From contig CAKPOI010000001.1 of the NCBI GenBank assembly GCA_934169775.1, positions 16,558-80,557 of the forward strand: a DNA stretch of 64,000 bases. Direction: 5' to 3'. Made by a program: the position numbers and the translations under genes. Positions within the stretch are counted from its first letter, which is position 1. Each line of letters begins with the position of its first letter. The stretch comes from an uncultured Clostridia bacterium. Its GTDB lineage: Bacteria > Bacillota > Clostridia > TANB77 > CAG-508. The notes beneath the pieces were generated by a model. It saw only the letters and a list, made by a program, of their open reading frames with translations. It was not told the origin of the DNA and searched no databases. Positions 1,405 to 57,047 of this stretch are shown piece after piece.

Positions 1405-1468
1405 TGATGTTTTTGGGGACGGACTCAAAAAACACTAGTGTTTTTTTGCTCCGTCCCTAAAAACACTA
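1405..1468. repeat. Two inverted copies of the GC-rich intergenic repeat (TTTTGGGGACGGACTCAAAAAACACT / AGTGTTTTTTTGCTCCGTCCCTAAAAACACT) forming an imperfect palindrome.
   Basis: A GC-rich island in AT-rich DNA. Members of the same family occur at 7589, 24677, 42484, 42754, 47526 and 59851. Confidence 0.7.
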
Positions 1469-1475
1469 CTCAATG

Positions 1476-1603
1476 TTAATTGAGAAATAATTAAATTTTG
1501 GCAAGGAAAATTTTATTTAAAAGGCAAGGGCGCATACGTAGTGTATGTAACCGCGTTTTAAATGAAATTTGACGCAGCCAAAATTGTAATTATTTCTCAA
1601 TTC
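1476..1603. repeat. About 128-bp element bounded by 27-bp inverted repeats (TTAATTGAGAAATAATTAAATTTTGGC / GCCAAAATTGTAATTATTTCTCAATTC). It lies between ftsW and murG and abuts the ftsW stop codon.
   Basis: Near-perfect inverted termini seen directly. The TTGAGAAATA ends resemble those of the 34381-34583 element. Confidence 0.5.
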
Positions 1604-7588: not shown

Positions 7589-7660
7589 AGTGTTTTTTGA
7601 GTCCGGCCCCAAAAGCATTAGTGTTTTTTTGAGTCCGGCCCCAAAAGCACTAAAAACACT
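7589..7660. repeat. Two tandem copies of the GC-rich repeat (AGTGTTTTTTGAGTCCGGCCCCAAAAGCA) ending in an inverted AAAAACACT.
   Basis: Seen directly. Same family as the 1405, 24677, 42484, 42754, 47526 and 59851 copies. Confidence 0.7.
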
Positions 7661-14469: not shown

Positions 14470-15052
14470 TTATAATGCGTCTGAAATGATTTTATAAATC
14501 ATTTCATTCATTGCTGAGATCTCTAACTCATCTGTTCTTATTAGGCTTTTACGTAAATTTACGTCATTGAAAAAATCACAAAAATACTTGTTGTACTCTT
14601 TTATGTATTCTTCTTTTACGATTTTTCCTTCAGCTCCTCTACGTTTCAAAGCGGTTGTTGGTGAAACTATTAGTCCTAAAAGTAAGTCCGGATTTACATT
14701 TGATAAGCATGTTTTTTTAAAATACTTGTATTCTTCTAAGCTTGCTTTTTTTTTCATAAAAAAACTTCCAAGCATAAAACTTGCTATCGATAATTCCTCT
14801 GTCAATTAGAACCACTTCTGCCTGTGAATAAGTTGCTTTAAATATACCTGCTTGTGTTACAAAGTGCATCCATAAGTTTGCATCAAATGTTCCTTTGGGT
14901 ATTTCGTTTGGCAGCTTTTCAGCGGATTCTTCAAGTATCATTACTGAATGTCCTGCATTTTCAAGCATGTTGGAAACTACTTTGATAGCTGTTGTTTTTC
15001 CAGCTTCTGGTGTTCCCGTAAATTCTACCATAAACGGCTTCTTTTTCCGCAT
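14470..15052 (-). pseudogene. P-loop NTPase (nucleoside/nucleotide kinase-like) split by a -1/+1 frameshift in an A9 homopolymer.
   Basis: Walker A FTGTPEAGKTT. Two overlapping ORFs, 14717..15052 and 14470..14805. Removing one A from the A9 run (plus strand T9 at 14746-14754) gives the continuous reading ...YEKKASLEEYKYF... Confidence 0.5.
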
Positions 15053-15178
15053 AGTTATGCCCTCCTAATTATATATTTTTGTTATTAAAGTATACTATAT
15101 TTTTTAAATTATTGCAATGTTTTTTCTTATTTTTAGAGCTTAGAGCATAACTTTATTTATAGAGTTGCTTTTATTTTT

Positions 15179-15775
15179 TTATATTATTTTCATTTTTACT
15201 TCTTTACCTTTAAATGCAAATACCATTTTTGTTATGTTTGTATATCCTCTTTCTTGTAAATCTTCTTCGTATTTTCTTTCTTCTTTTTTGTCTTGGACAT
15301 CAAAGTCTTTTATAATTTTATCCATTTCTTTTGCTGTTATGCCAAAGTCGTCACTAAATTCGTCATCTAATACTGTATATACATCAAAGTTGTTTGCTCC
15401 ACTAAATATGCTTTCTTTTGCTACTCTTGATACTCCTGTTAATACTGTTTTTTCTAAGCATAGATTATCCTTGAATGTTGTTCCATAAAATATTTTGAAG
15501 AATTTTATGGCTTCTTGATAATATCCTTCTATATATGCATTTTGTAATGGTACATCATATTCGTTTAAAAATAGCATTACTGGCTTATCATAATATCTAT
15601 TTAAATATTTACTTAGTGTTTTTATACTGTTTCTTAATACTATTTCATCTTCTTTATATGATAATATTTCTTTTATTTGTTCTTTTTCAAATGGATATTG
15701 TTTTGTCTATATAATAATTTTTTCTTATCCTTATCCCTCTAAAATCGCTTTCTCCTATTCCTATTCCGTACATTT
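15179..15775 (-). pseudogene. Internally deleted remnant of the AAA-ATPase/PD-(D/E)XK gene found intact at 52951..54627.
   Basis: N- and C-terminal segments are about 85-90% identical in nucleotide sequence to the 52951-54627 copy, with the middle roughly 1.1 kb missing. C-terminal peptide RKYEEDLQERGYTNITKMVFAFKGKEVKM is shared. Confidence 0.7.
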
Positions 15776-34380: not shown

Positions 34381-34583
34381 GAGGAGAGATACTTTGTACA
34401 TTGAGAAATATATTTTTTTGTGATTGAAGCAATATTAGAAATTCTTAAATAATTTAATGGAAAGAGTTCACGTCGAGCGAAGCGAGGACTAAGTGGAAGG
34501 GTGCCATTAAATTATTTTAAAATTTCTTAAATTGCGTAATGAACCTAAAAATATATTTCTCAATGTACAAAGTATCTCTCCTC
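34381..34583. repeat. 203-bp element with perfect 35-bp terminal inverted repeats (GAGGAGAGATACTTTGTACATTGAGAAATATATTT) and a GC-rich central core shared with the 42.6 kb element.
   Basis: Left end 34381-34415 is the exact reverse complement of 34549-34583. Core is GGAAAGAGTTCACGTCGAGCGAAGCGAGGACTAAGTGGAAGG. Confidence 0.6.
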
Positions 34584-35570: not shown

Positions 35571-35927
35571 TTATTTAAATATCATATTATATGCAGCATA
35601 AATAAGGAATATTGTAAATACAATTTTCATCTTTTCTTCTGGTATTTTTCTTAGTATTTTTGCTCCTATATATCCTCCTATTGTTCCTCCTATTGCACAT
35701 AATGCTGCTGTTTTCCATTCTATATAATTGCCTTTATAATAAAAGAAACTACTTGTTATTACCATTGGTAATATGCAAAGTATTGATGTTCCTCTTGCTT
35801 TTTTTGATTCTTCTTTTAGAAGATATATAAATGCTGGTACTAGTATTAGTCCACCACCTGTTGAAAATAATCCACTTATAAATCCTGCTAAAAAACCTAT
35901 TATTATTTTTTTTATAAAATCCTTCAT
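35571..35927 (-). CDS. TSUP (TauE/SafE, DUF81) family permease, half-size.
   Basis: FSTGGGLILVPAF motif. 118 aa. Confidence 0.55.
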   Translation of the reverse strand: MKDFIKKIIIGFLAGFISGLFSTGGGLILVPAFIYLLKEESKKARGTSILCILPMVITSSFFYYKGNYIEWKTAALCAIGGTIGGYIGAKILRKIPEEKMKIVFTIFLIYAAYNMIFK

Positions 35928-35991
35928 TAAAAAACCTACTTTTATTAGTAGGTTTACCTCTTTTTATAAATTTATGCATTTTTCTTCAAAA

Positions 35992-36711
35992 TTATTTTTT
36001 CTTGTTTTGTATTTGTTCTGCTTTTTGTGGATTTATTTTTAATGTGTCATTTTCTCCTGGGATATAATATCTTGTATTTTTTATTTCTTCTGGTAAATAT
36101 TGTTGTTTTACATAGTTTCCTGGATAATCATGTGGATACAAATATCCTTGATTGTATCCTAGTGCTTCCATATTTTTTACTGGTGCATTTCTTATATGCA
36201 TTGGTACTTCCCCAGTTTCTTTGTTTTTTACATCTTCAAGTGCTTGATTTATTCCCATATATGTTGAATTTGATTTTGGCGAATTTGCTACATATACTGC
36301 CGCTTCTGCCAATATTATTCTTGCTTCTGGCATTCCTACCATATGTACTGCTTGCATTGCACTATTTGCTATTACCAATGCTTCTGGATTTGCTAGTCCT
36401 ACATCTTCAGATGCACTTATAACTATTCTTCTCGCTAAAAACATTGGATCTTCTCCTCCTTTAATTGCTCTAGCTAAATAAAATAATGCTGCATCTGCAT
36501 CTGAGCCTCTCATGGATTTTATAAATGCACTTATATTGTCATAGTGTGAATCTCCATTTTTATCAAATACTGCTTTTCTTTCTTGTATACTATTTTTTAT
36601 AACCTCATCAGTAATGTGAATATATCCGTCTGAGTCCATCTTTGTAGTTAATACTGCTACCTCTAATCCATTTAATGCAGTACGGACATCTCCATTACTT
36701 ATTGAGGCCAA
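35992..36711 (-). CDS. rarA: RarA/MgsA replication-associated recombination protein, C-terminal part. Frameshifted relative to 36731..37282.
   Basis: GDVRTALNGLE and MgsA C-terminal motifs. The ORF track used a TTG start; translation is continuous with the upstream part if one base is removed near 36751-36757. Confidence 0.7.
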   Translation of the reverse strand: MASISNGDVRTALNGLEVAVLTTKMDSDGYIHITDEVIKNSIQERKAVFDKNGDSHYDNISAFIKSMRGSDADAALFYLARAIKGGEDPMFLARRIVISASEDVGLANPEALVIANSAMQAVHMVGMPEARIILAEAAVYVANSPKSNSTYMGINQALEDVKNKETGEVPMHIRNAPVKNMEALGYNQGYLYPHDYPGNYVKQQYLPEEIKNTRYYIPGENDTLKINPQKAEQIQNKKK

Positions 36712-36730
36712 TTTTTTTAATGTTTCTTCC

Positions 36731-37282
36731 TCAATTTTTATATTGTATTCTCCGTAAGCCTTCCTTACTTTTTAATGCATTTTTCAAAACTGTGTATATA
36801 TTTTCTGTTGTTAATGGCTCTAATTTTATTACCATTGATCTTGATATTAAAGCTTTATTTACTTCAAAATATGGATTTTCTGTTGTTGCTCCTATTAATA
36901 TTATTGTTCCATTTTCTACATATGGTAATAATGCATCTTGTTGTAATTTATTAAATCTATGAATCTCGTCTATAAATAATATGCTTTTTCCTATTGGATT
37001 TAACATAAAGTTTTTTGTTTCTTCTATTACTCTTTTTATATCTGAAACTCCTGCTGTTACTGCATTTATTTTATAAAATTTATATTTTGTTGTTTCACTT
37101 ATTACTCTTGCTAATGATGTTTTGCCACATCCTGGAGGTCCAAATAATATAATACTTGATAGCCTGTCTGCTTTTATTGTTCTATATAAAAGTTTGCCTT
37201 CTCCTATTACATGTTCTTGTCCTACATATTCTTCTAGTGTTTTTGGTCTAACTCTATATGCTAGCGGCTCATTTGAATTCAT
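36731..37282 (-). CDS. rarA: RarA/MgsA AAA+ ATPase, N-terminal part.
   Basis: GPPGCGKTSLA Walker A, DEIHRFNK, IGATTENP. Confidence 0.75.
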   Translation of the reverse strand: MNSNEPLAYRVRPKTLEEYVGQEHVIGEGKLLYRTIKADRLSSIILFGPPGCGKTSLARVISETTKYKFYKINAVTAGVSDIKRVIEETKNFMLNPIGKSILFIDEIHRFNKLQQDALLPYVENGTIILIGATTENPYFEVNKALISRSMVIKLEPLTTENIYTVLKNALKSKEGLRRIQYKN

Positions 37283-42480: not shown

Positions 42481-42483
42481 CTG

Positions 42484-42784
42484 ATGTTTTTGGGGACGGA
42501 CTCAAAAAACATCACTATTACATATCATTAAAAATAATAAATGTTATATGGTTTAATAATTTTCTCGGTTCAATACACAAACTAAAAATTTCTAAAATAA
42601 AATAATGTAATCCTTCAGCTTAGTCCTCACTTCGTTCGACGTGAAGCTCTTCCATCATTTTATTTAAGAAATTCTAAGATTGTTCCAATCACATTCGAAA
42701 ATTATTCTTCCATATAACATTTATTATTTTTTATATAATTTGAAAAGATATATGGTGTTTTTTGAGTCCGTCCCCAAAAACATC
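42484..42784. mobile_element. MITE-like non-autonomous element. Two inverted copies of the GC-rich repeat (about 30 bp, GATGTTTTTGGGGACGGACTCAAAAAACATC / its reverse complement) flank 240 bp with no ORF that carries the GC-rich core shared with 34381..34583.
   Basis: Inverted termini at 42484-42513 and 42754-42784. The internal CTTAGTCCTCACTTCGTTCGACGTGAAGCTCTT is about 90% identical to the reverse complement of 34454-34486. Confidence 0.5.
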
Positions 42785-47525: not shown

Positions 47526-47585
47526 GGTGCTTTTTGAGTCCGGCCCCAAAAGCATTAATCTTATAAGTCCGGTCCCTAAAGCATC
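47526..47585. repeat. Two tandem GC-rich repeat copies (GAGTCCGGCCCCAAAAGCATTA / AAGTCCGGTCCCTAAAGCATC).
   Basis: Seen directly. Intergenic, between the NlpC/P60 gene and ppaC. Confidence 0.65.
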
Positions 47586-52950: not shown

Positions 52951-54627
52951 TTATATTAATTGCATTTTTACTTCTTTTCCTTTAAATGCAAATACCATTT
53001 TTGTTATGTTTGTATATCCTTTTTCTTGTAGATCTTCTTCATATTTTCTTTCTTCTATTTGCTTTTTGGCATTTTCTATTGTGTCTTCTATATCTTTTTC
53101 TCTGTCCTCTTTGTATACTTTAAATTCCATTATAAAGCTGTTTCCGTTTTTGTCTTTTGGTTCTAACATTATATCGTATCTTCCATATCCTGATTCTCTA
53201 TTGGATTTTACATAGTAGCTGTCTTTTAAGCCTACTAACATTCCTAATACAAATGCATGGTAAAAGTTTTCTGCTGTGTTTTCGCCTACATCCATATAAC
53301 TGAACATTTGAGTTACTAGTACCTTGAATTTTGTTTCAAATTCATCTAAATTTAATGTTATTAAGTCTTTTAATATTGTATTTAAATTGTTTCCTATTAC
53401 TTTATCATTAAACCATTCTCTTATTATGGTTTGAAATAAGAATTTTATTTCATAATTTGGTATTTTTACTTTGTATATTCCTGTTGCTAAATCTACTACT
53501 TCTGTTACTTTTAAATATCCTGTTCCTAATAATAGTCCCCAGATATTTTCTTCGTTTTGCTCTATTCCTACTATTACTGTGTCTAAATTTATTGGTACTT
53601 CTATTTCTTCATCTCGTAATAATTGCTCTATTTTTTCTTTTACTGTTACACTATTTTTTAGTATTAATTTTATTAAGTCATTTGAACTTGTGTTTACCCA
53701 ATATGGCATTAATTTTCTGTCTGTTAAATAGTTTAATATGCTCCATGGATTATATATTCCTTCTGTGTTTCCTATTGTGTATCCATCATACCACTTTTTA
53801 ATTTCGTCTTTTTCGTCTTGTATTTCAAAATCTTGTATAATTTTATCCATTTCTTTTTCTGTTATTCCAAAGTCATCACTGAATTCGTCATCTAATACTG
53901 TATATACTTTAAAGTTATTTGCTCCACTAAATATGCTTTCTTTTGCTACTCTTGATACTCCTGTTAATACTGTTTTTTCTAAATATGGATTGTCCTTAAA
54001 TGTCGTTCCATAAAATATTTTGAAAAATGATATTCCTTTTTCATAATAACTATTTACATATGCTGTTTGTAAAGGTACATCATATTCATCTAAAAATAAC
54101 ATTACTGGTTTATCATAATAGCGTGATAAATATTCGCTCAAATCTTTTACACTATTTTTTAAGGTTACTTCATCTTCTCTAAAATATAATATATCATTTA
54201 TTTTTTCTTTTTCAAATGGATATATCTTATCACTATCTAACAAGTACATATGTTCTTTATATGTATTTAACATTGCTGTTTTCATATTTAGTATCATGTT
54301 TTCATATGTGCTTTCGTTTACATCTTTTAATGTTATGTATATACATGGATAATATCCTAGCTTTGATGTGTATTTTTCATCTTGTTCCATTATTTTTAGG
54401 CCTTCAAATATTTCTTTACTGTCTTTTTTTGTACAGTCAAAATAGTATTTTAACATACTCATGTTTAGCGTTTTTCCGAATCTTCTTGGTCTTGTTACTA
54501 ATATTACTGATGCCTCATTGTCTATTATATCTTTTATATACATGGTTTTGTCTATATAATAGTTTTTTCTTATTCTTAATGCTTTAAAATCACTTTGCCC
54601 TATTCCTATTCCATACATATACCTCAC
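52951..54627 (-). CDS. AAA-ATPase-like / PD-(D/E)XK nuclease family protein (DUF1703-type), 558 aa. Intact copy of the remnant at 15179..15775.
   Basis: N-terminal YGIGIGQSDFKALR...VTRPRRFGKTLNMSML (AAA-ATPase-like). C-terminal nuclease-like region (FDIM...EFKV). Confidence 0.65.
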   Translation of the reverse strand: MRYMYGIGIGQSDFKALRIRKNYYIDKTMYIKDIIDNEASVILVTRPRRFGKTLNMSMLKYYFDCTKKDSKEIFEGLKIMEQDEKYTSKLGYYPCIYITLKDVNESTYENMILNMKTAMLNTYKEHMYLLDSDKIYPFEKEKINDILYFREDEVTLKNSVKDLSEYLSRYYDKPVMLFLDEYDVPLQTAYVNSYYEKGISFFKIFYGTTFKDNPYLEKTVLTGVSRVAKESIFSGANNFKVYTVLDDEFSDDFGITEKEMDKIIQDFEIQDEKDEIKKWYDGYTIGNTEGIYNPWSILNYLTDRKLMPYWVNTSSNDLIKLILKNSVTVKEKIEQLLRDEEIEVPINLDTVIVGIEQNEENIWGLLLGTGYLKVTEVVDLATGIYKVKIPNYEIKFLFQTIIREWFNDKVIGNNLNTILKDLITLNLDEFETKFKVLVTQMFSYMDVGENTAENFYHAFVLGMLVGLKDSYYVKSNRESGYGRYDIMLEPKDKNGNSFIMEFKVYKEDREKDIEDTIENAKKQIEERKYEEDLQEKGYTNITKMVFAFKGKEVKMQLI

Positions 54628-54976: not shown

Positions 54977-55181
54977 TTCTTTTTCCTTTTTTTATTTACT
55001 TGCGTAAAATAAATACATTCAATTTCTTTACTAATATTTATTTTACTGATTCTTTTTTACCTATTCTTATTATTTTTTCTATTTTTATATATTTAATAAT
55101 TTCGGAAGGAATAAATCTCTTTAATACTAATACCTTTACTGTATATATTCCGTAAAATATATAATCTGAAATTTGTATTAG

Positions 55182-55315
55182 AGTGCTGGACGGAAACTAA
55201 TATTGTTGTTGCTGTTAGTCGTGCTATTGTTATTACGGTTAGAGGCTGGATTATTAGAGCCTGTATTGTTGTAATTGCCTCCCCTGTTGGCACAAGGATT
55301 GCTACTGTTGGAAGT
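55182..55315 (-). other. DGR template repeat (TR), 134 bp, located 68 bp downstream of the RT gene.
   Basis: 134-bp homology to 57061-57194 (VR). All 16 differences lie at TR adenines (sense strand). The TR is rich in AAC/AAT codons. Homology ends at ...AGTGCTGG. Confidence 0.85.
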
Positions 55316-55383
55316 TTTCGATTTATCCCTAATTTTCTTTTTTTGTTTATATTGTAATATTAAATTAAGTTATTTTATATTTT

Positions 55384-56169
55384 TTATTCTATGTAAAATA
55401 ATTTGTTTGTTAAATTGTATACATTTGCTATTTGTATATATCCCATATGTCCTGCTAAATATTTTTTTGCTTCTTGTTTTGTTTTTACAAATATTATGCT
55501 GTCGTCCAAATATCTTTTATAATATTTTATTTTTAACTTATGCTTTATGTATTGGTCTACTTCATTTAAATATATGTTTGCAAACATTTGTGATGTGTAA
55601 TTTCCTATTTCTAATCCTTTTGGTCTTTTCTGTGCATATATTATTTCTTCTAATAACCATATTACATCTTTGTCTTTTATTTTTCTTTTTAATATTTTTA
55701 GTAATGTTTGTTTGTCTATATTATCAAAATATTTTGATATATCCATTTTTAGTATATAATATTCTCCCCATTTAGCTTTACAGTGTTTCATTGTTTTTTG
55801 TGTGTCTAAACATGCTTTATGCATTCCTCTGTTTTTTATACATGCATATGTGGTTTTTATAAATTGTGGTACATATGCTGGTTCTAAAAATTTGTCTACT
55901 ACCCATCTGTGTACTATTCTGTCTATATATCTTGATTTTTCTATTTTTCTTACTTTTGGTTCTGTTACATAAAATTCTGTATATCCTCCATGCCTGTATG
56001 TTTTGGTTTTTAGTTTTTCTAATAGCCACATTATATATTCTTCTTGTTTTAAATTAAATTCTATTATTTCTTTTCTATAGCCTTTTCCTTTTTGTGATTC
56101 TTTATGTGCAAGCATTAGTTTTTCGTATGTTAGGTTTTCTTCATATTTGTTTCGTATCGTTTTTGGCAT
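55384..56169 (-). CDS. Diversity-generating retroelement reverse transcriptase (261 aa; short, thumb region reduced).
   Basis: RT motifs 1-5 with the DGR-specific IGNYTSQ motif 4 ([I/L/V]GxxxSQ instead of QGxxxSP) and a YLDD catalytic box. The N-terminus aligns with Bordetella bRT-like RTs. Confidence 0.8.
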   Translation of the reverse strand: MPKTIRNKYEENLTYEKLMLAHKESQKGKGYRKEIIEFNLKQEEYIMWLLEKLKTKTYRHGGYTEFYVTEPKVRKIEKSRYIDRIVHRWVVDKFLEPAYVPQFIKTTYACIKNRGMHKACLDTQKTMKHCKAKWGEYYILKMDISKYFDNIDKQTLLKILKRKIKDKDVIWLLEEIIYAQKRPKGLEIGNYTSQMFANIYLNEVDQYIKHKLKIKYYKRYLDDSIIFVKTKQEAKKYLAGHMGYIQIANVYNLTNKLFYIE

Positions 56170-56530
56170 AGTATTTTATTAGTCCTCCTAATATTTTTCC
56201 TATTTCATATATTTGCTCCATTGCTATTCTGAATTTCTTTTCATCTATCCATTGGTTCTTTTTCATTATTCTTAAATAAATTCTTTGTGTATTTAGTTCT
56301 GCATCTATATGGTTTAATGTTTCTATTATTTGACTTTTTTCTCCTTTACCTATTTTGTTTATATACATTATTTTTCTTATCATTTGATACATACTTTGTT
56401 TATATTCGTTTCCTATACTAAATTTTTCTATTCTTGGAAGTTTTATTATTACCTGTAATATGTATTCTATATATTTTTCTGCCTTTGGTATTAATTGTAG
56501 TTTATTTTCTTTTTCACTCTTTTTATCCAT
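56141..56530 (-). CDS. avd: Avd-like accessory variability determinant (129-aa basic helical-bundle protein); overlaps the RT start.
   Basis: Size, basic helical character, and its position immediately upstream of and overlapping the DGR RT. Confidence 0.55.
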   Translation of the reverse strand: MDKKSEKENKLQLIPKAEKYIEYILQVIIKLPRIEKFSIGNEYKQSMYQMIRKIMYINKIGKGEKSQIIETLNHIDAELNTQRIYLRIMKKNQWIDEKKFRIAMEQIYEIGKILGGLIKYYAKNDTKQI

Positions 56531-56779
56531 TTAATCGTTTTCCTTTTTATTGCTTCTATATTCTTTTTCTTCTAATTTTTTCATATATGTTTCTATTGAA
56601 TTTACTGGTATTCCTATTTTACATACTTCTGGTTCCATGCATAATAACTTTAACCCTAATATTTCGTTTAATTTTACTGCGTCTTTTCCTCTCGCTAAAT
56701 AAAATGCTCCTGCATTTGTCAATATTATGTATCCTTTATTTTTTTCTTGTAATAATTCTAACATTTTACTAAATCCCAT
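56531..56779 (-). CDS. Small protein resembling MutS mismatch-binding domain I (82 aa); first gene of the avd-RT operon.
   Basis: AGAFYLARGKDAVKLNEILGLKL...IGIPVNSIETYMKKL aligns with MutS domain I ([23 protein letters not shown]...AGIPYHAVENYLAKL). The mismatch-contacting Glu is replaced by Leu. Confidence 0.35.
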   Translation of the reverse strand: MGFSKMLELLQEKNKGYIILTNAGAFYLARGKDAVKLNEILGLKLLCMEPEVCKIGIPVNSIETYMKKLEEKEYRSNKKEND

Positions 56780-56843
56780 TTTCTACCTCCTGCTTTGTTT
56801 TATTTTTAAAGCTGGCGCGGTTCGTTTTTTTGCCTGAAAGCTC

Positions 56844-56880
56844 AAAAAAAACGCTACCGCCAGGTAGCGCTACCTCCAGG
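56844..56880 (-). terminator. Rho-independent terminator about 170 bp downstream of the DGR target gene.
   Basis: Minus strand reads CGCTACC-TGGC-GGTAGCG followed by T8. Confidence 0.55.
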
Positions 56881-57047
56881 TGAAAAATTGTATTTCTGGA
56901 TTTACCAAGAACAAGTTCTTGATAAATTCTGTCCTTCAATTTTCCACCTGCCTCTAGCGTATTTCATTCGCTAGAGGGTACTTATTATTCAATTTACCGG
57001 CTATAAAATGGCTCTCTCGCCTATTTTATAATCACGGGCTTTAGCTT

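What the first reader, a model, noticed from the sequence alone, without database searches (positions are those of the whole stretch)
42484..42784. MITE-like element: GC-rich repeat as 30-bp inverted termini flanking a 240-bp non-coding core
Two copies of the GC-rich repeat in inverted orientation (GATGTTTTTGGGGACGGACTCAAAAAACATC at 42484 and TGTTTTTTGAGTCCGTCCCCAAAAACATC at 42754) bracket 240 bp with no ORF. The interior carries the GC-rich core CTTAGTCCTCACTTCGTTCGACGTGAAGCTCTT, which is also found (as its reverse complement) in the 34381-34583 element. The structure fits a miniature inverted-repeat transposable element inserted between pgsA and a downstream gene.
Basis: seen in the sequence. 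Interest (0 to 1): 0.6.

Follow-up and report, generated by a model that had tools for sequence, protein, structure and literature searches.

The report
Nested mobile hairpin repeats between genes
The 300-base non-coding hairpin between two converging genes is a worn copy of a small mobile-DNA family found in uncultured gut Clostridia, sitting between two copies of a second, shorter repeat; the families are new, but the kind is ordinary.

Summary
At 42483-42784, two 32-nt GC-rich units in inverted orientation (97% complementary) flank about 240 non-coding bp. Its centre recurs at 34381-34583.

The interpretation as one MITE with GC-rich termini is only partly right. Two repeat families are nested.

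(1) A long-hairpin (foldback) MITE family. At least 80 copies were found in about 20 Clostridia MAGs. In sister lineages it ends in GTTACAATTCACAG inverted repeats with 8-bp target-site duplications (17 of 34 match at 7/8 or better; control 0.8%). The window copy keeps only a TTACAT/ATATAAT remnant and has no duplication.

(2) A 31-bp REP-like GC-rich unit. It also occurs alone, in tandem and as doublets. It typically starts 0-11 nt after a stop codon.

Other strains carry the same locus with everything between the units inverted (three contigs), or with the inner 204 bp missing and both units kept (one contig). A species with a 68%-identical neighbouring gene has ordinary terminator-like hairpins there instead.

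Arm pairing is maintained at the DNA level. There is no G·U bias and no orientation bias. Centres are flipped and arm changes are mirrored at orthologous loci.

There is no Rfam match, and no transposase was identified. This is a new member of known kinds, of modest interest.

The parts
42483..42514 (+). Left GC-rich REP-like unit (GATGTTTTTGGGGACGGACTCAAAAAACATCA). It starts 2 nt after the pgsA stop codon.
   Evidence: Alone it folds as a 9-bp AT stem with a GC-rich loop (DNA z = -4.5). Same-strand stop-codon distance is 2.
42515..42524 (.). Left linker containing TTACAT (42518-42523). This is a remnant of the family terminus GTTACA. It is retained in the short allele.
   Evidence: L007 keeps CATCACTATTATATG. 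Compared with the GTTACAATTCACAG / GTTACAGG termini of sister lineages.
42525..42728 (+). Inner long hairpin of about 204 bp (foldback-MITE body). It is absent from strain contig L007. It is bounded by the imperfect direct repeat AAAACATA/ATAACATA, read on allele B.
   Evidence: Arms 42527-42564 / 42697-42734 are 89% complementary.
42541..42724 (+). Conserved family core, matched by a profile built from 65 copies.
   Evidence: nhmmer E = 9.7e-46. Alignment A1. RNAalifold gives 34 pairs, 18 of them with double changes.
42629..42635 (-). Tip heptamer. The bottom strand reads ACGAAGT, a variant of GCGAAGC (34473-34479, + strand, in the second copy). GCGAAGC matches the GCGNAGC DNA mini-hairpin motif.
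   Evidence: searches (outer pair G-C in 45 copies, A-T in 19, one mixed copy; GCGTAGC variant) and PMC13037366. Nearest-neighbour folding shows no special stability.
42729..42752 (.). Right linker (TTTTATATAATTTGAAAAGATATATG) containing the ATATAAT terminus remnant. It is homologous between composite copies.
42753..42784 (-). Right GC-rich REP-like unit. It overlaps the stop codon of the convergent 203-aa gene.
   Evidence: distance -1.
34381..34583 (-). Second family copy in the window. It has the same core, its own perfect outer stem (38 consecutive pairs in the predicted fold) and no GC units. It lies between convergent genes.
   Evidence: and 46 (E = 3.4e-44). Spacing is unchanged in all strain contigs.
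1406..1468 (.). Adjacent inverted doublet of GC units (REPIN-like).
   Evidence: In L234/L235/L239 it directly follows the FtsW stop codon.
7590..7652 (-). Tandem pair of GC units about 10 nt after the stop codon of a 91-aa gene. Strains carry 1 or 2 units.
24678..24708 (-). Solo GC unit overlapping the stop codon of the 2440-aa GH94 gene.
47527..47585 (-). One GC unit plus a degenerate second unit, directly after the stop codon of the DHH-family gene. Copy number varies among strains.
59844..59914 (.). Cluster of variant GC units (GATGATTTGGGGACGG...) forming nested inverted repeats.
   Evidence: (I6, I19).

Best explanation
The 300 bp are two nested, non-coding palindromic repeats.

The inner ~204-bp hairpin is a decayed, probably immobile copy of a clade-specific foldback MITE family. 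In sister lineages that family is still bounded by the 14-bp inverted repeats GTTACAATTCACAG and by 8-bp target-site duplications. This implies mobilisation in trans by a DDE-type transposase (inferred; not found).

The two outer 31-bp GC-rich units belong to a separate REP-like family. Its units sit immediately after stop codons and also occur alone, in tandem and as doublets.

In the window's species group, the form [unit-linker-hairpin-linker-unit] exists at several loci. It may have spread as a block by an unknown mechanism that leaves no target-site duplication.

Because the structure is a long DNA palindrome, its arms recombine with each other. This flips the asymmetric centre, copies changes from one arm to the other, and occasionally deletes the centre.

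Any host effect, such as a 3'-end hairpin or terminator for both converging genes, is inferred and not shown.
For: Family and mobility
- The apex pattern finds 80 loci (the cap) in about 20 Clostridia MAGs, with 8-16 copies per MAG.
- Of 34 elements with both TIRs, 8 have 8/8 and 9 have 7/8 identical 8-bp flanks. Unmatched flank pairs reach 7/8 or better in only 0.8%.
- All 50 scored copies are intergenic: 29 tandem, 13 divergent and 8 convergent contexts. Orientation in the tandem contexts is 18 to 11.

Separate GC units
- They occur without the hairpin at 1406-1468, 7590-7652, 24678-24708, 47527-47585 and 59844-59914.
- 12 of 34 units start -2 to +9 nt from a same-strand stop codon.
- Unit copy number varies among strains.

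Same locus elsewhere
- Allele A: the window plus 11 other contigs.
- Allele B: three contigs (L002, L003, L009). Its interior is 98% identical to the reverse complement of A but only 72% to A read directly.
- Allele C: L007, 100 bp, with both units kept and the hairpin absent.
- The species with a 68%-identical neighbouring gene has 135 bp containing two ordinary hairpins, one followed by a T-run, and neither repeat.

DNA-level pairing
- Arm mismatches of G·T type number 166 against 170 of A·C type.
- 2 of 5 orthologous locus groups have the inner segment flipped, with breakpoints inside the symmetric arm.
- There are 11 mirrored two-arm changes against 33 single changes at orthologous loci.

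Other
- The composite recurs with homologous linkers.
- There are no Rfam, plasmid, phage or viral-contig matches.
Against: - No autonomous element or transposase with matching ends was found in the held loci or the window.
- The window copy has no target-site duplication and only a 6-7-nt terminus remnant. Its former mobility is therefore inferred from relatives.
- The recurrence of the whole composite with fixed spacing leaves open that the GC units act as functional ends in this lineage.
- The L007 allele can be read as a palindrome-stimulated deletion between AACATA repeats, or as a never-filled shell.
- The central ~170 bp is far more conserved than the arms. Among paralogues it is 99% or more against 50-70%. 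At orthologous loci divergence is 1.7% against about 6-9%, with flanks at 3.2%. Simple decay of junk DNA does not explain this.
- All comparison sequences are metagenome or MAG contigs, which tend to break or misjoin at repeats.
Confidence: 0.7

Rival explanations
1. The whole 300 bp is one MITE, its terminal inverted repeats are the GC-rich units, and it moves as a unit.
For: The same composite, with unit-to-apex spacing of 132-138 nt and homologous linkers, occurs at 6 or more distinct loci in HGM13660 and metagenomes.
Against: - No target-site duplication flanks any composite.
- The units occur alone, in tandem and as doublets.
- They persist when the hairpin is absent.
- Their position tracks stop codons.
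- The 34381 copy and sister subfamilies lack them.
- A remnant of a different terminus lies inside them.
Confidence: 0.15
2. A structured non-coding RNA, or an RNA-level regulatory or terminator element, maintained by selection on RNA pairing.
For: Folding is very strong (z = -14 and -18). Of 34 consensus pairs, 18 show double changes. Neither converging gene has another terminator-like site, whereas the related species has ordinary terminator-like hairpins at this position.
Against: - There is no excess of G·U-compatible mismatches on either strand (166 against 170).
- There is no clear orientation or context preference, and 13 copies sit between divergent genes.
- The centre is flipped at orthologous loci.
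- There is no Rfam match even at E up to 10.
- Stems are near-perfect Watson-Crick, as expected from DNA-level copying.
Confidence: 0.07
3. A programmed invertible switch (inverton): the GC units are recombinase sites and flipping regulates the neighbouring genes.
For: Alleles A and B differ by a clean inversion whose breakpoints lie inside the 27-nt stretch shared by the two GC units. Similar flips are seen at other loci.
Against: - No promoter-like site beyond chance lies inside.
- Both flanks are gene 3' ends.
- No invertase or recombinase was found in the window ORFs examined by Pfam (precomputed hits; scans).
- Orientation travels with other strain-specific differences, as for a fixed polymorphism.
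- At another locus the flip breakpoints lie in hairpin arms that have no GC unit.
Confidence: 0.05
4. The conserved apex encodes an 11-codon peptide (M-E-x-V-H-V-E-R-S-E-D) on the bottom strand.
For: Start and stop codons are kept in most copies. Several variable sites fall at third codon positions: GAG/GAA, AGC/AGT, AGN, GGN.
Against: - There is no Shine-Dalgarno sequence, and the start codon lies inside a stem.
- The two 'synonymous' sites covary as a G-C to A-T base pair.
- In copies collected without conditioning on the apex, L102 has in-frame stops, L103 is frameshifted and L147 has a different sequence.
- L087 is frameshifted.
Confidence: 0.02

Closest known systems
Bacterial MITEs (for example Correia/NEMIS, RUP, ERIC and QMITE2; reviewed in PMC10969869, census in PMC11602168)
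   Same: Small (about 240-480 bp), non-coding, AT-rich, intergenic and multi-copy. Restricted to one clade. Bounded by terminal inverted repeats and short target-site duplications. Transcripts are predicted to fold into one long hairpin.
   Different: The whole element is a near-complete palindrome with a strongly conserved asymmetric centre. No parent IS or transposase has been identified. The window copy has lost its canonical ends and duplication and sits between units of another repeat family.
REP / BIME / REPIN elements (PMC3733652, PMC3116915, PMC2817692)
   Same: For the GC units: about 31-bp palindromic units that are extragenic and lie just downstream of coding regions. They occur singly, in tandem and as inverted doublets that can fold into larger hairpins. 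Copy number varies between strains. No target-site duplication.
   Different: The stem is AT-rich and the conserved GC-rich part is the loop, whereas classical REPs have GC-rich stems. There is no GTAG or CGTC tag at one end. The host is a low-GC Firmicute. No RAYT gene has been identified.
REP dimers nested in long palindromes (Anabaena variabilis GTAG-15 and Halothiobacillus neapolitanus CGTC-1; PMC3733652)
   Same: A short palindromic repeat family is regularly associated with a second, longer palindrome, giving a composite repeat.
   Different: The nesting order is reversed. Here the long palindrome lies inside the doublet of short units.
Long DNA palindromes and inverted repeats with arm-to-arm gene conversion and flip-flop of the centre (for example plastid inverted repeats and Y-chromosome palindromes; from general knowledge)
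   Same: The asymmetric centre is found in both orientations, and changes are mirrored between the arms.
   Different: The scale is 200-500 bp, and the palindromes are dispersed multi-copy elements in a bacterial chromosome.
GCGNAGC DNA mini-hairpin motif (PMC13037366)
   Same: The hairpin tip reads GCGAAGC on one strand. Variants are ACGAAGT, which keeps the outer pair, and GCGTAGC.
   Different: Only a motif match and one covarying pair support this. No function is known here. The cited natural examples are phage and plasmid single-strand priming sites.

Membership tests
MITE | Small, non-coding, multi-copy element | tested here: met
   About 204-bp body with no ORF of 40 aa or more. At least 80 copies in about 20 MAGs. 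Two copies in the window.
MITE | Terminal inverted repeats recognised by a transposase | tested here: inconclusive
   Sister subfamilies end in GTTACAATTCACAG. No such sequence occurs in the window beyond chance. The window copy keeps only TTACAT/ATATAAT.
MITE | Target-site duplication | tested here: inconclusive
   In the family, 17 of 34 elements have 8-bp flanks matching at 7/8 or better, against 0.8% in controls. In the window copy, none flanks the composite. There is only an imperfect AAAACATA/ATAACATA around the segment missing in L007.
MITE | Presence/absence polymorphism at orthologous sites | tested here: met
   L007 lacks the inner 204 bp. The species with a 68%-identical neighbouring gene lacks the whole structure. 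A 78%-identity species has it.
MITE | Cognate autonomous element or transposase with the same ends | tested here: not met
   None was found in the roughly 600 kb of the 80 loci held at that point, nor among the window ORFs examined by Pfam. A PDDEXK_2 'transposase' ORF at 22077-22715 has no flanking inverted repeats. Whole genomes could not be searched.
REP / REPIN | 20-40 bp imperfect palindrome, extragenic, many copies, often in inverted pairs | tested here: met
   31-bp unit with a 9-bp stem. Ten units in 64 kb, arranged as solo, tandem and inverted units.
REP / REPIN | Unpaired GTAG or CGTC tag at one end (PMC3733652) | tested here: not met
   Unit ends read (G/A)(A/G)TG...CA(T/C)(C/T). 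CGTC occurs only inside the loop, on the reverse strand.
REP / REPIN | Associated RAYT (Y1 transposase) gene flanked by the repeats | not testable with these tools
   No Y1_Tnp hit was seen among the window ORFs examined by Pfam (precomputed hits; scans).
Rfam RNA families | Covariance-model match at the gathering score | tested here: not met
   There is no match over the element at the gathering threshold. At E up to 10 there are only chance-level hits.
Inverton (invertible promoter switch) | Segment between inverted repeats found in both orientations, carrying a promoter, with an invertase | tested here: not met
   Both orientations exist among strains. However, there is no promoter beyond chance and no invertase among the window ORFs examined by Pfam.

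The most novel reading that the evidence does not exclude
The central ~170 bp, with two conserved asymmetric internal loops and a GCGAAGC-tipped apex, may be a functional DNA hairpin rather than inert cargo. It would be recognised as a folded single strand or cruciform by a transposon or host protein. The flip-flop of the centre and the mirrored arm changes would then be by-products of a hairpin-based copying or repair mechanism.

This would explain three things:
- The core stays 99% or more identical among paralogues while the adjacent stem diverges to 50-70% yet remains complementary.
- The core diverges more slowly than flanking DNA at orthologous loci.
- One core variant (GGTGTCC) is shared by paralogues within one MAG but not by their orthologues.
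Probability: 0.12. Interest if true: 0.65.

Novelty: new member of a known kind. Interest (0 to 1): 0.3.

Why it matters
Practically, these repeats explain several features of assemblies from this group of uncultured, small-genome gut Clostridia. Contigs break at them, strains differ by local inversions and indels, and gene neighbourhoods change at them (L018, L241). They could also serve as strain markers.

Biologically, they give a clear natural example of how long palindromic repeats evolve in a bacterial chromosome. The arms convert each other, the centres flip, and the centres are occasionally deleted. They also show that a REP-like family hugging stop codons exists in a low-GC Firmicute with no obvious RAYT.

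None of this overturns current understanding. MITEs are reported in more than half of prokaryotic genomes and are mostly genus-specific (PMC11602168).

The open point worth following is why the hairpin core is so much better conserved than its stem.

Tried and rejected
- **Rfam.** The gathering-threshold scan of the whole window found only RT-14 at 55004-55183. The permissive scan of the element gave nothing credible.
- **tRNA/tmRNA.** None.
- **Promoter and terminator scans.** Nothing beyond chance at either copy.
- **RNA-level selection.** Rejected: no G·U excess and no strand bias, and no orientation bias.
- **Micro-ORF in the apex.** This looked attractive because of apparently synonymous changes. 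It was rejected after an apex-independent metagenome scan showed in-frame stops and frameshifts. Most of that scan's 120 hits were chance matches to an unrelated gene.
- **Autonomous element.** No TIR pairs 560-4000 bp apart enclose a gene. There are no inverted repeats around the PDDEXK_2 or AAA-ATPase/PDDEXK_9 genes in the window.
- **Plasmid, phage and viral collections.** No match.
- **Target-site duplications around the GC-unit composites and doublets.** None seen by inspection.
- **Empty sites for GC units.** None found in strain contigs, only changes in copy number.
- **Nearest-neighbour DNA folding of the 45-nt apex.** No stability above shuffles. The mini-hairpin idea therefore rests on the motif match and one covarying pair only.
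- **Literature search for this family.** Nothing specific was found.

Full report
**Observation**

- GATGTTTTTGGGGACGGACTCAAAAAACATCA lies at 42483-42514. Its inverted partner lies at 42753-42784. The arms are 32 nt, 97% complementary and 238 nt apart.
- The GC-rich 12-mer occurs 6 times in the window against 0.07 expected.
- The interior motif occurs twice against 0.00 expected, at 42622-42645(+) and 34467-34490(-).
- The element lies between pgsA (+) and a convergent 203-aa gene. Homologues of that gene are annotated as BofC C-terminal domain proteins.
- The whole 300 nt folds as one long imperfect hairpin, z = -14. The 34381-34583 element does the same, z = -18.

**Source**

Exact-protein look-ups place the window in human-gut metagenome contigs. 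The nearest species-representative genome that carries the same locus is the Clostridia MAG HGM13660. Its contig L088 begins inside the element.

**The inner hairpin belongs to a large family**

A scan of species-representative genomes for the apex pattern returned 80 loci, which is the cap. They come from about 20 MAGs labelled uncultured Clostridium or Clostridia, from human, chicken and sheep gut, with 8-16 copies per MAG. Viral contigs, plasmids and phages gave nothing, and Rfam gave nothing. A profile of 65 copies finds exactly two copies in the window.

About 150-170 nt around the apex is conserved. It contains two asymmetric internal loops, CGGTTCAATAC and CCAATCACATTCG. The outer stem differs by subfamily but is always self-complementary.

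Two subfamilies, of about 236 bp and about 470 bp, end in the inverted repeat GTTACAATTCACAG.
- Of 34 elements with both ends, 8 have identical 8-bp flanks and 9 match at 7 of 8. Unmatched flank pairs reach that level in only 0.8%.
- These are therefore genuine MITEs with terminal inverted repeats and 8-bp target-site duplications.
- A more distant metagenomic lineage ends in GTTACAGG....
- The window's subfamily keeps only TTACAT/ATATAAT at the equivalent position.
- Short derivatives that keep the ends but lack the core also exist.

No autonomous partner was found.

**The GC-rich units are a second family**

In the window they also occur in four other arrangements:
- an adjacent inverted doublet (1406-1468);
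- tandem pairs (7590-7652, 47527-47585);
- a solo unit (24678-24708);
- a variant cluster (59844-59914).

They are confined to the window's species group. A chicken MAG has the same GGGGACGGACTC core with different flanks.

Twelve of 34 units begin -2 to +9 nt from the stop codon of a same-strand ORF, and seven overlap the stop codon. In some strains the 1406 doublet directly follows the FtsW stop. In the window a separate 125-bp element has been inserted between them. Unit copy number varies among strains.

At 42483-42784, each unit abuts the stop codon of the gene on its own side.

In their behaviour these units resemble REP/BIME/REPIN elements (PMC3733652). They lack the GTAG/CGTC tag, and their stem is AT-rich with a GC-rich loop.

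**The composite recurs**

In HGM13660 and in metagenomes, the arrangement unit-linker-hairpin-linker-unit occurs at 6 or more further loci. Spacing is the same and the linkers are homologous. Doublets with a 40-52-bp spacer and no hairpin also exist. No target-site duplication flanks either form.

**The same locus elsewhere**

There are three alleles among strain contigs that encode identical flanking proteins.
- Allele A: the window and 11 other contigs, 304 bp.
- Allele B: three contigs (L002, L003, L009), 305 bp. Its interior is 98% identical to the reverse complement of A and 72% to A read directly. The breakpoints lie inside the 27-nt stretch shared by the two units.
- Allele C: L007, 100 bp. 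Both units and both linkers are present in the B orientation. The inner 204 bp is missing between AACATA repeats.

In other species:
- A species whose neighbouring gene is 78% identical carries the composite. On one contig it is joined to a different gene.
- A 68%-identical species has 135 bp containing two ordinary hairpins and neither repeat.
- A 59%-identical species has an unrelated GC-rich palindrome there.

**How the palindrome is maintained**

- Arm mismatches show no G·U-type excess on either strand, 166 against 170.
- Copies lie in tandem (29), divergent (13) and convergent (8) contexts, with no clear orientation bias.
- Of five orthologous locus groups between MAGs, two have the inner segment flipped. 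In one of them the breakpoints lie in the symmetric part of the arms.
- At unflipped orthologous loci there are 11 mirrored, complementary two-arm changes against 33 single changes. Independent mutation cannot produce this.

The simplest account is recombination and gene conversion between the two arms of each DNA palindrome. Selection on an RNA fold is not needed.

**Unexplained conservation of the core**

- In the 236-bp subfamily, the inner ~170 bp is 99% or more identical among 15 copies from two species. The ~30 bp between it and the ends is only 50-70% identical between copies, yet complementary within each copy.
- At orthologous loci, divergence is 1.7% in the core, about 6-9% in the arms and 3.2% in the flanks.
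- One core variant is shared by paralogues of one MAG but not by their orthologues. This hints at conversion among copies.
- The tip reads GCGAAGC on one strand. Its outer pair covaries to A-T, and one copy has GCGTAGC. This matches the GCGNAGC DNA mini-hairpin motif (PMC13037366). Nearest-neighbour folding gives no signal.
- An apparent 11-codon ORF in the apex was rejected.

**Verdict**

The single-MITE interpretation is partly supported. The structure is a foldback-MITE relic nested between REP-like units, subject to inversion and internal deletion. It is a new member of known kinds and of modest interest. The conserved core is the one feature that deserves follow-up.

Noticed in passing
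window 55004-58361 (- strand): A diversity-generating retroelement. It comprises a bAvd gene (56141-56530), a reverse transcriptase (55384-56169) and Rfam RT-14 RNA (55004-55183, 79 bits). A 437-aa ORF with no Pfam match (57048-58361) lies upstream as a candidate target. An OB-fold/SSB-like 82-aa ORF lies next to it. Template and variable repeats were not looked for.
   Followed up: partly
window 1478-1602: A separate 125-bp MITE-like insertion with inverted ends (GAGAAATAATTACAATTTTGGC...). It is flanked by ATTGAG repeats that include the FtsW stop codon. It is absent from strain contigs L234, L235 and L239, where the GC-unit doublet directly follows FtsW.
   Followed up: partly
window about 47420 (compare L002-L005, L010): Other strains carry a 145-bp GC-rich insertion here (GAACAAAAGCGGAC...CTAGTATAT, with internal hairpins). 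The window lacks it. This looks like a fourth small repeat family.
   Followed up: no
L018 1590-1950; L241 940-1273: On these contigs the hairpin composite next to the 203-aa gene is joined to a different neighbour (an aminotransferase or MinC) instead of pgsA, with extra GC units at the junction. This is either a rearrangement at the repeats or a chimeric assembly.
   Followed up: no
L005 (whole locus): The contig is a perfect inverted duplication of the clpC-pgsA region, joined inside clpC. This is most likely an assembly artefact.
   Followed up: no
window 22077-22715 (-); 52951-54627 (-); 14470-15577 (-): A PDDEXK_2 'nuclease family transposase' ORF, a 558-aa AAA-ATPase_like + PDDEXK_9 gene, and fragments of a second such gene. 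The AAA-ATPase/PDDEXK_9 gene sits at different positions in relatives (L012, L245-L247), which suggests a mobile or multi-copy gene. No flanking inverted repeats were found.
   Followed up: partly
window 35571-37282; 18044-19563: Several conserved genes appear split into two ORFs: MgsA-like AAA (183 + 239 aa), TauE (118 + 61 + 130 aa) and the ComM/Mg-chelatase-like gene (243 + 162 aa). The same splits are seen in all strain contigs for the first two. These may be pseudogenes or programmed features.
   Followed up: no
L245/L246 2120-2260: In a species whose neighbouring gene is 59% identical, the same intergenic position holds a different long palindrome built around AAAAGGGGACGCCCTTTTTTT. This is a possible distant relative of the GC unit.
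   Followed up: no
window 22895, 47469, 54693 (+): The motif CATTTTTCGA(C/T) recurs in intergenic DNA next to minus-strand genes, with 4 matches against 0.85 expected. This is of marginal significance.
   Followed up: no
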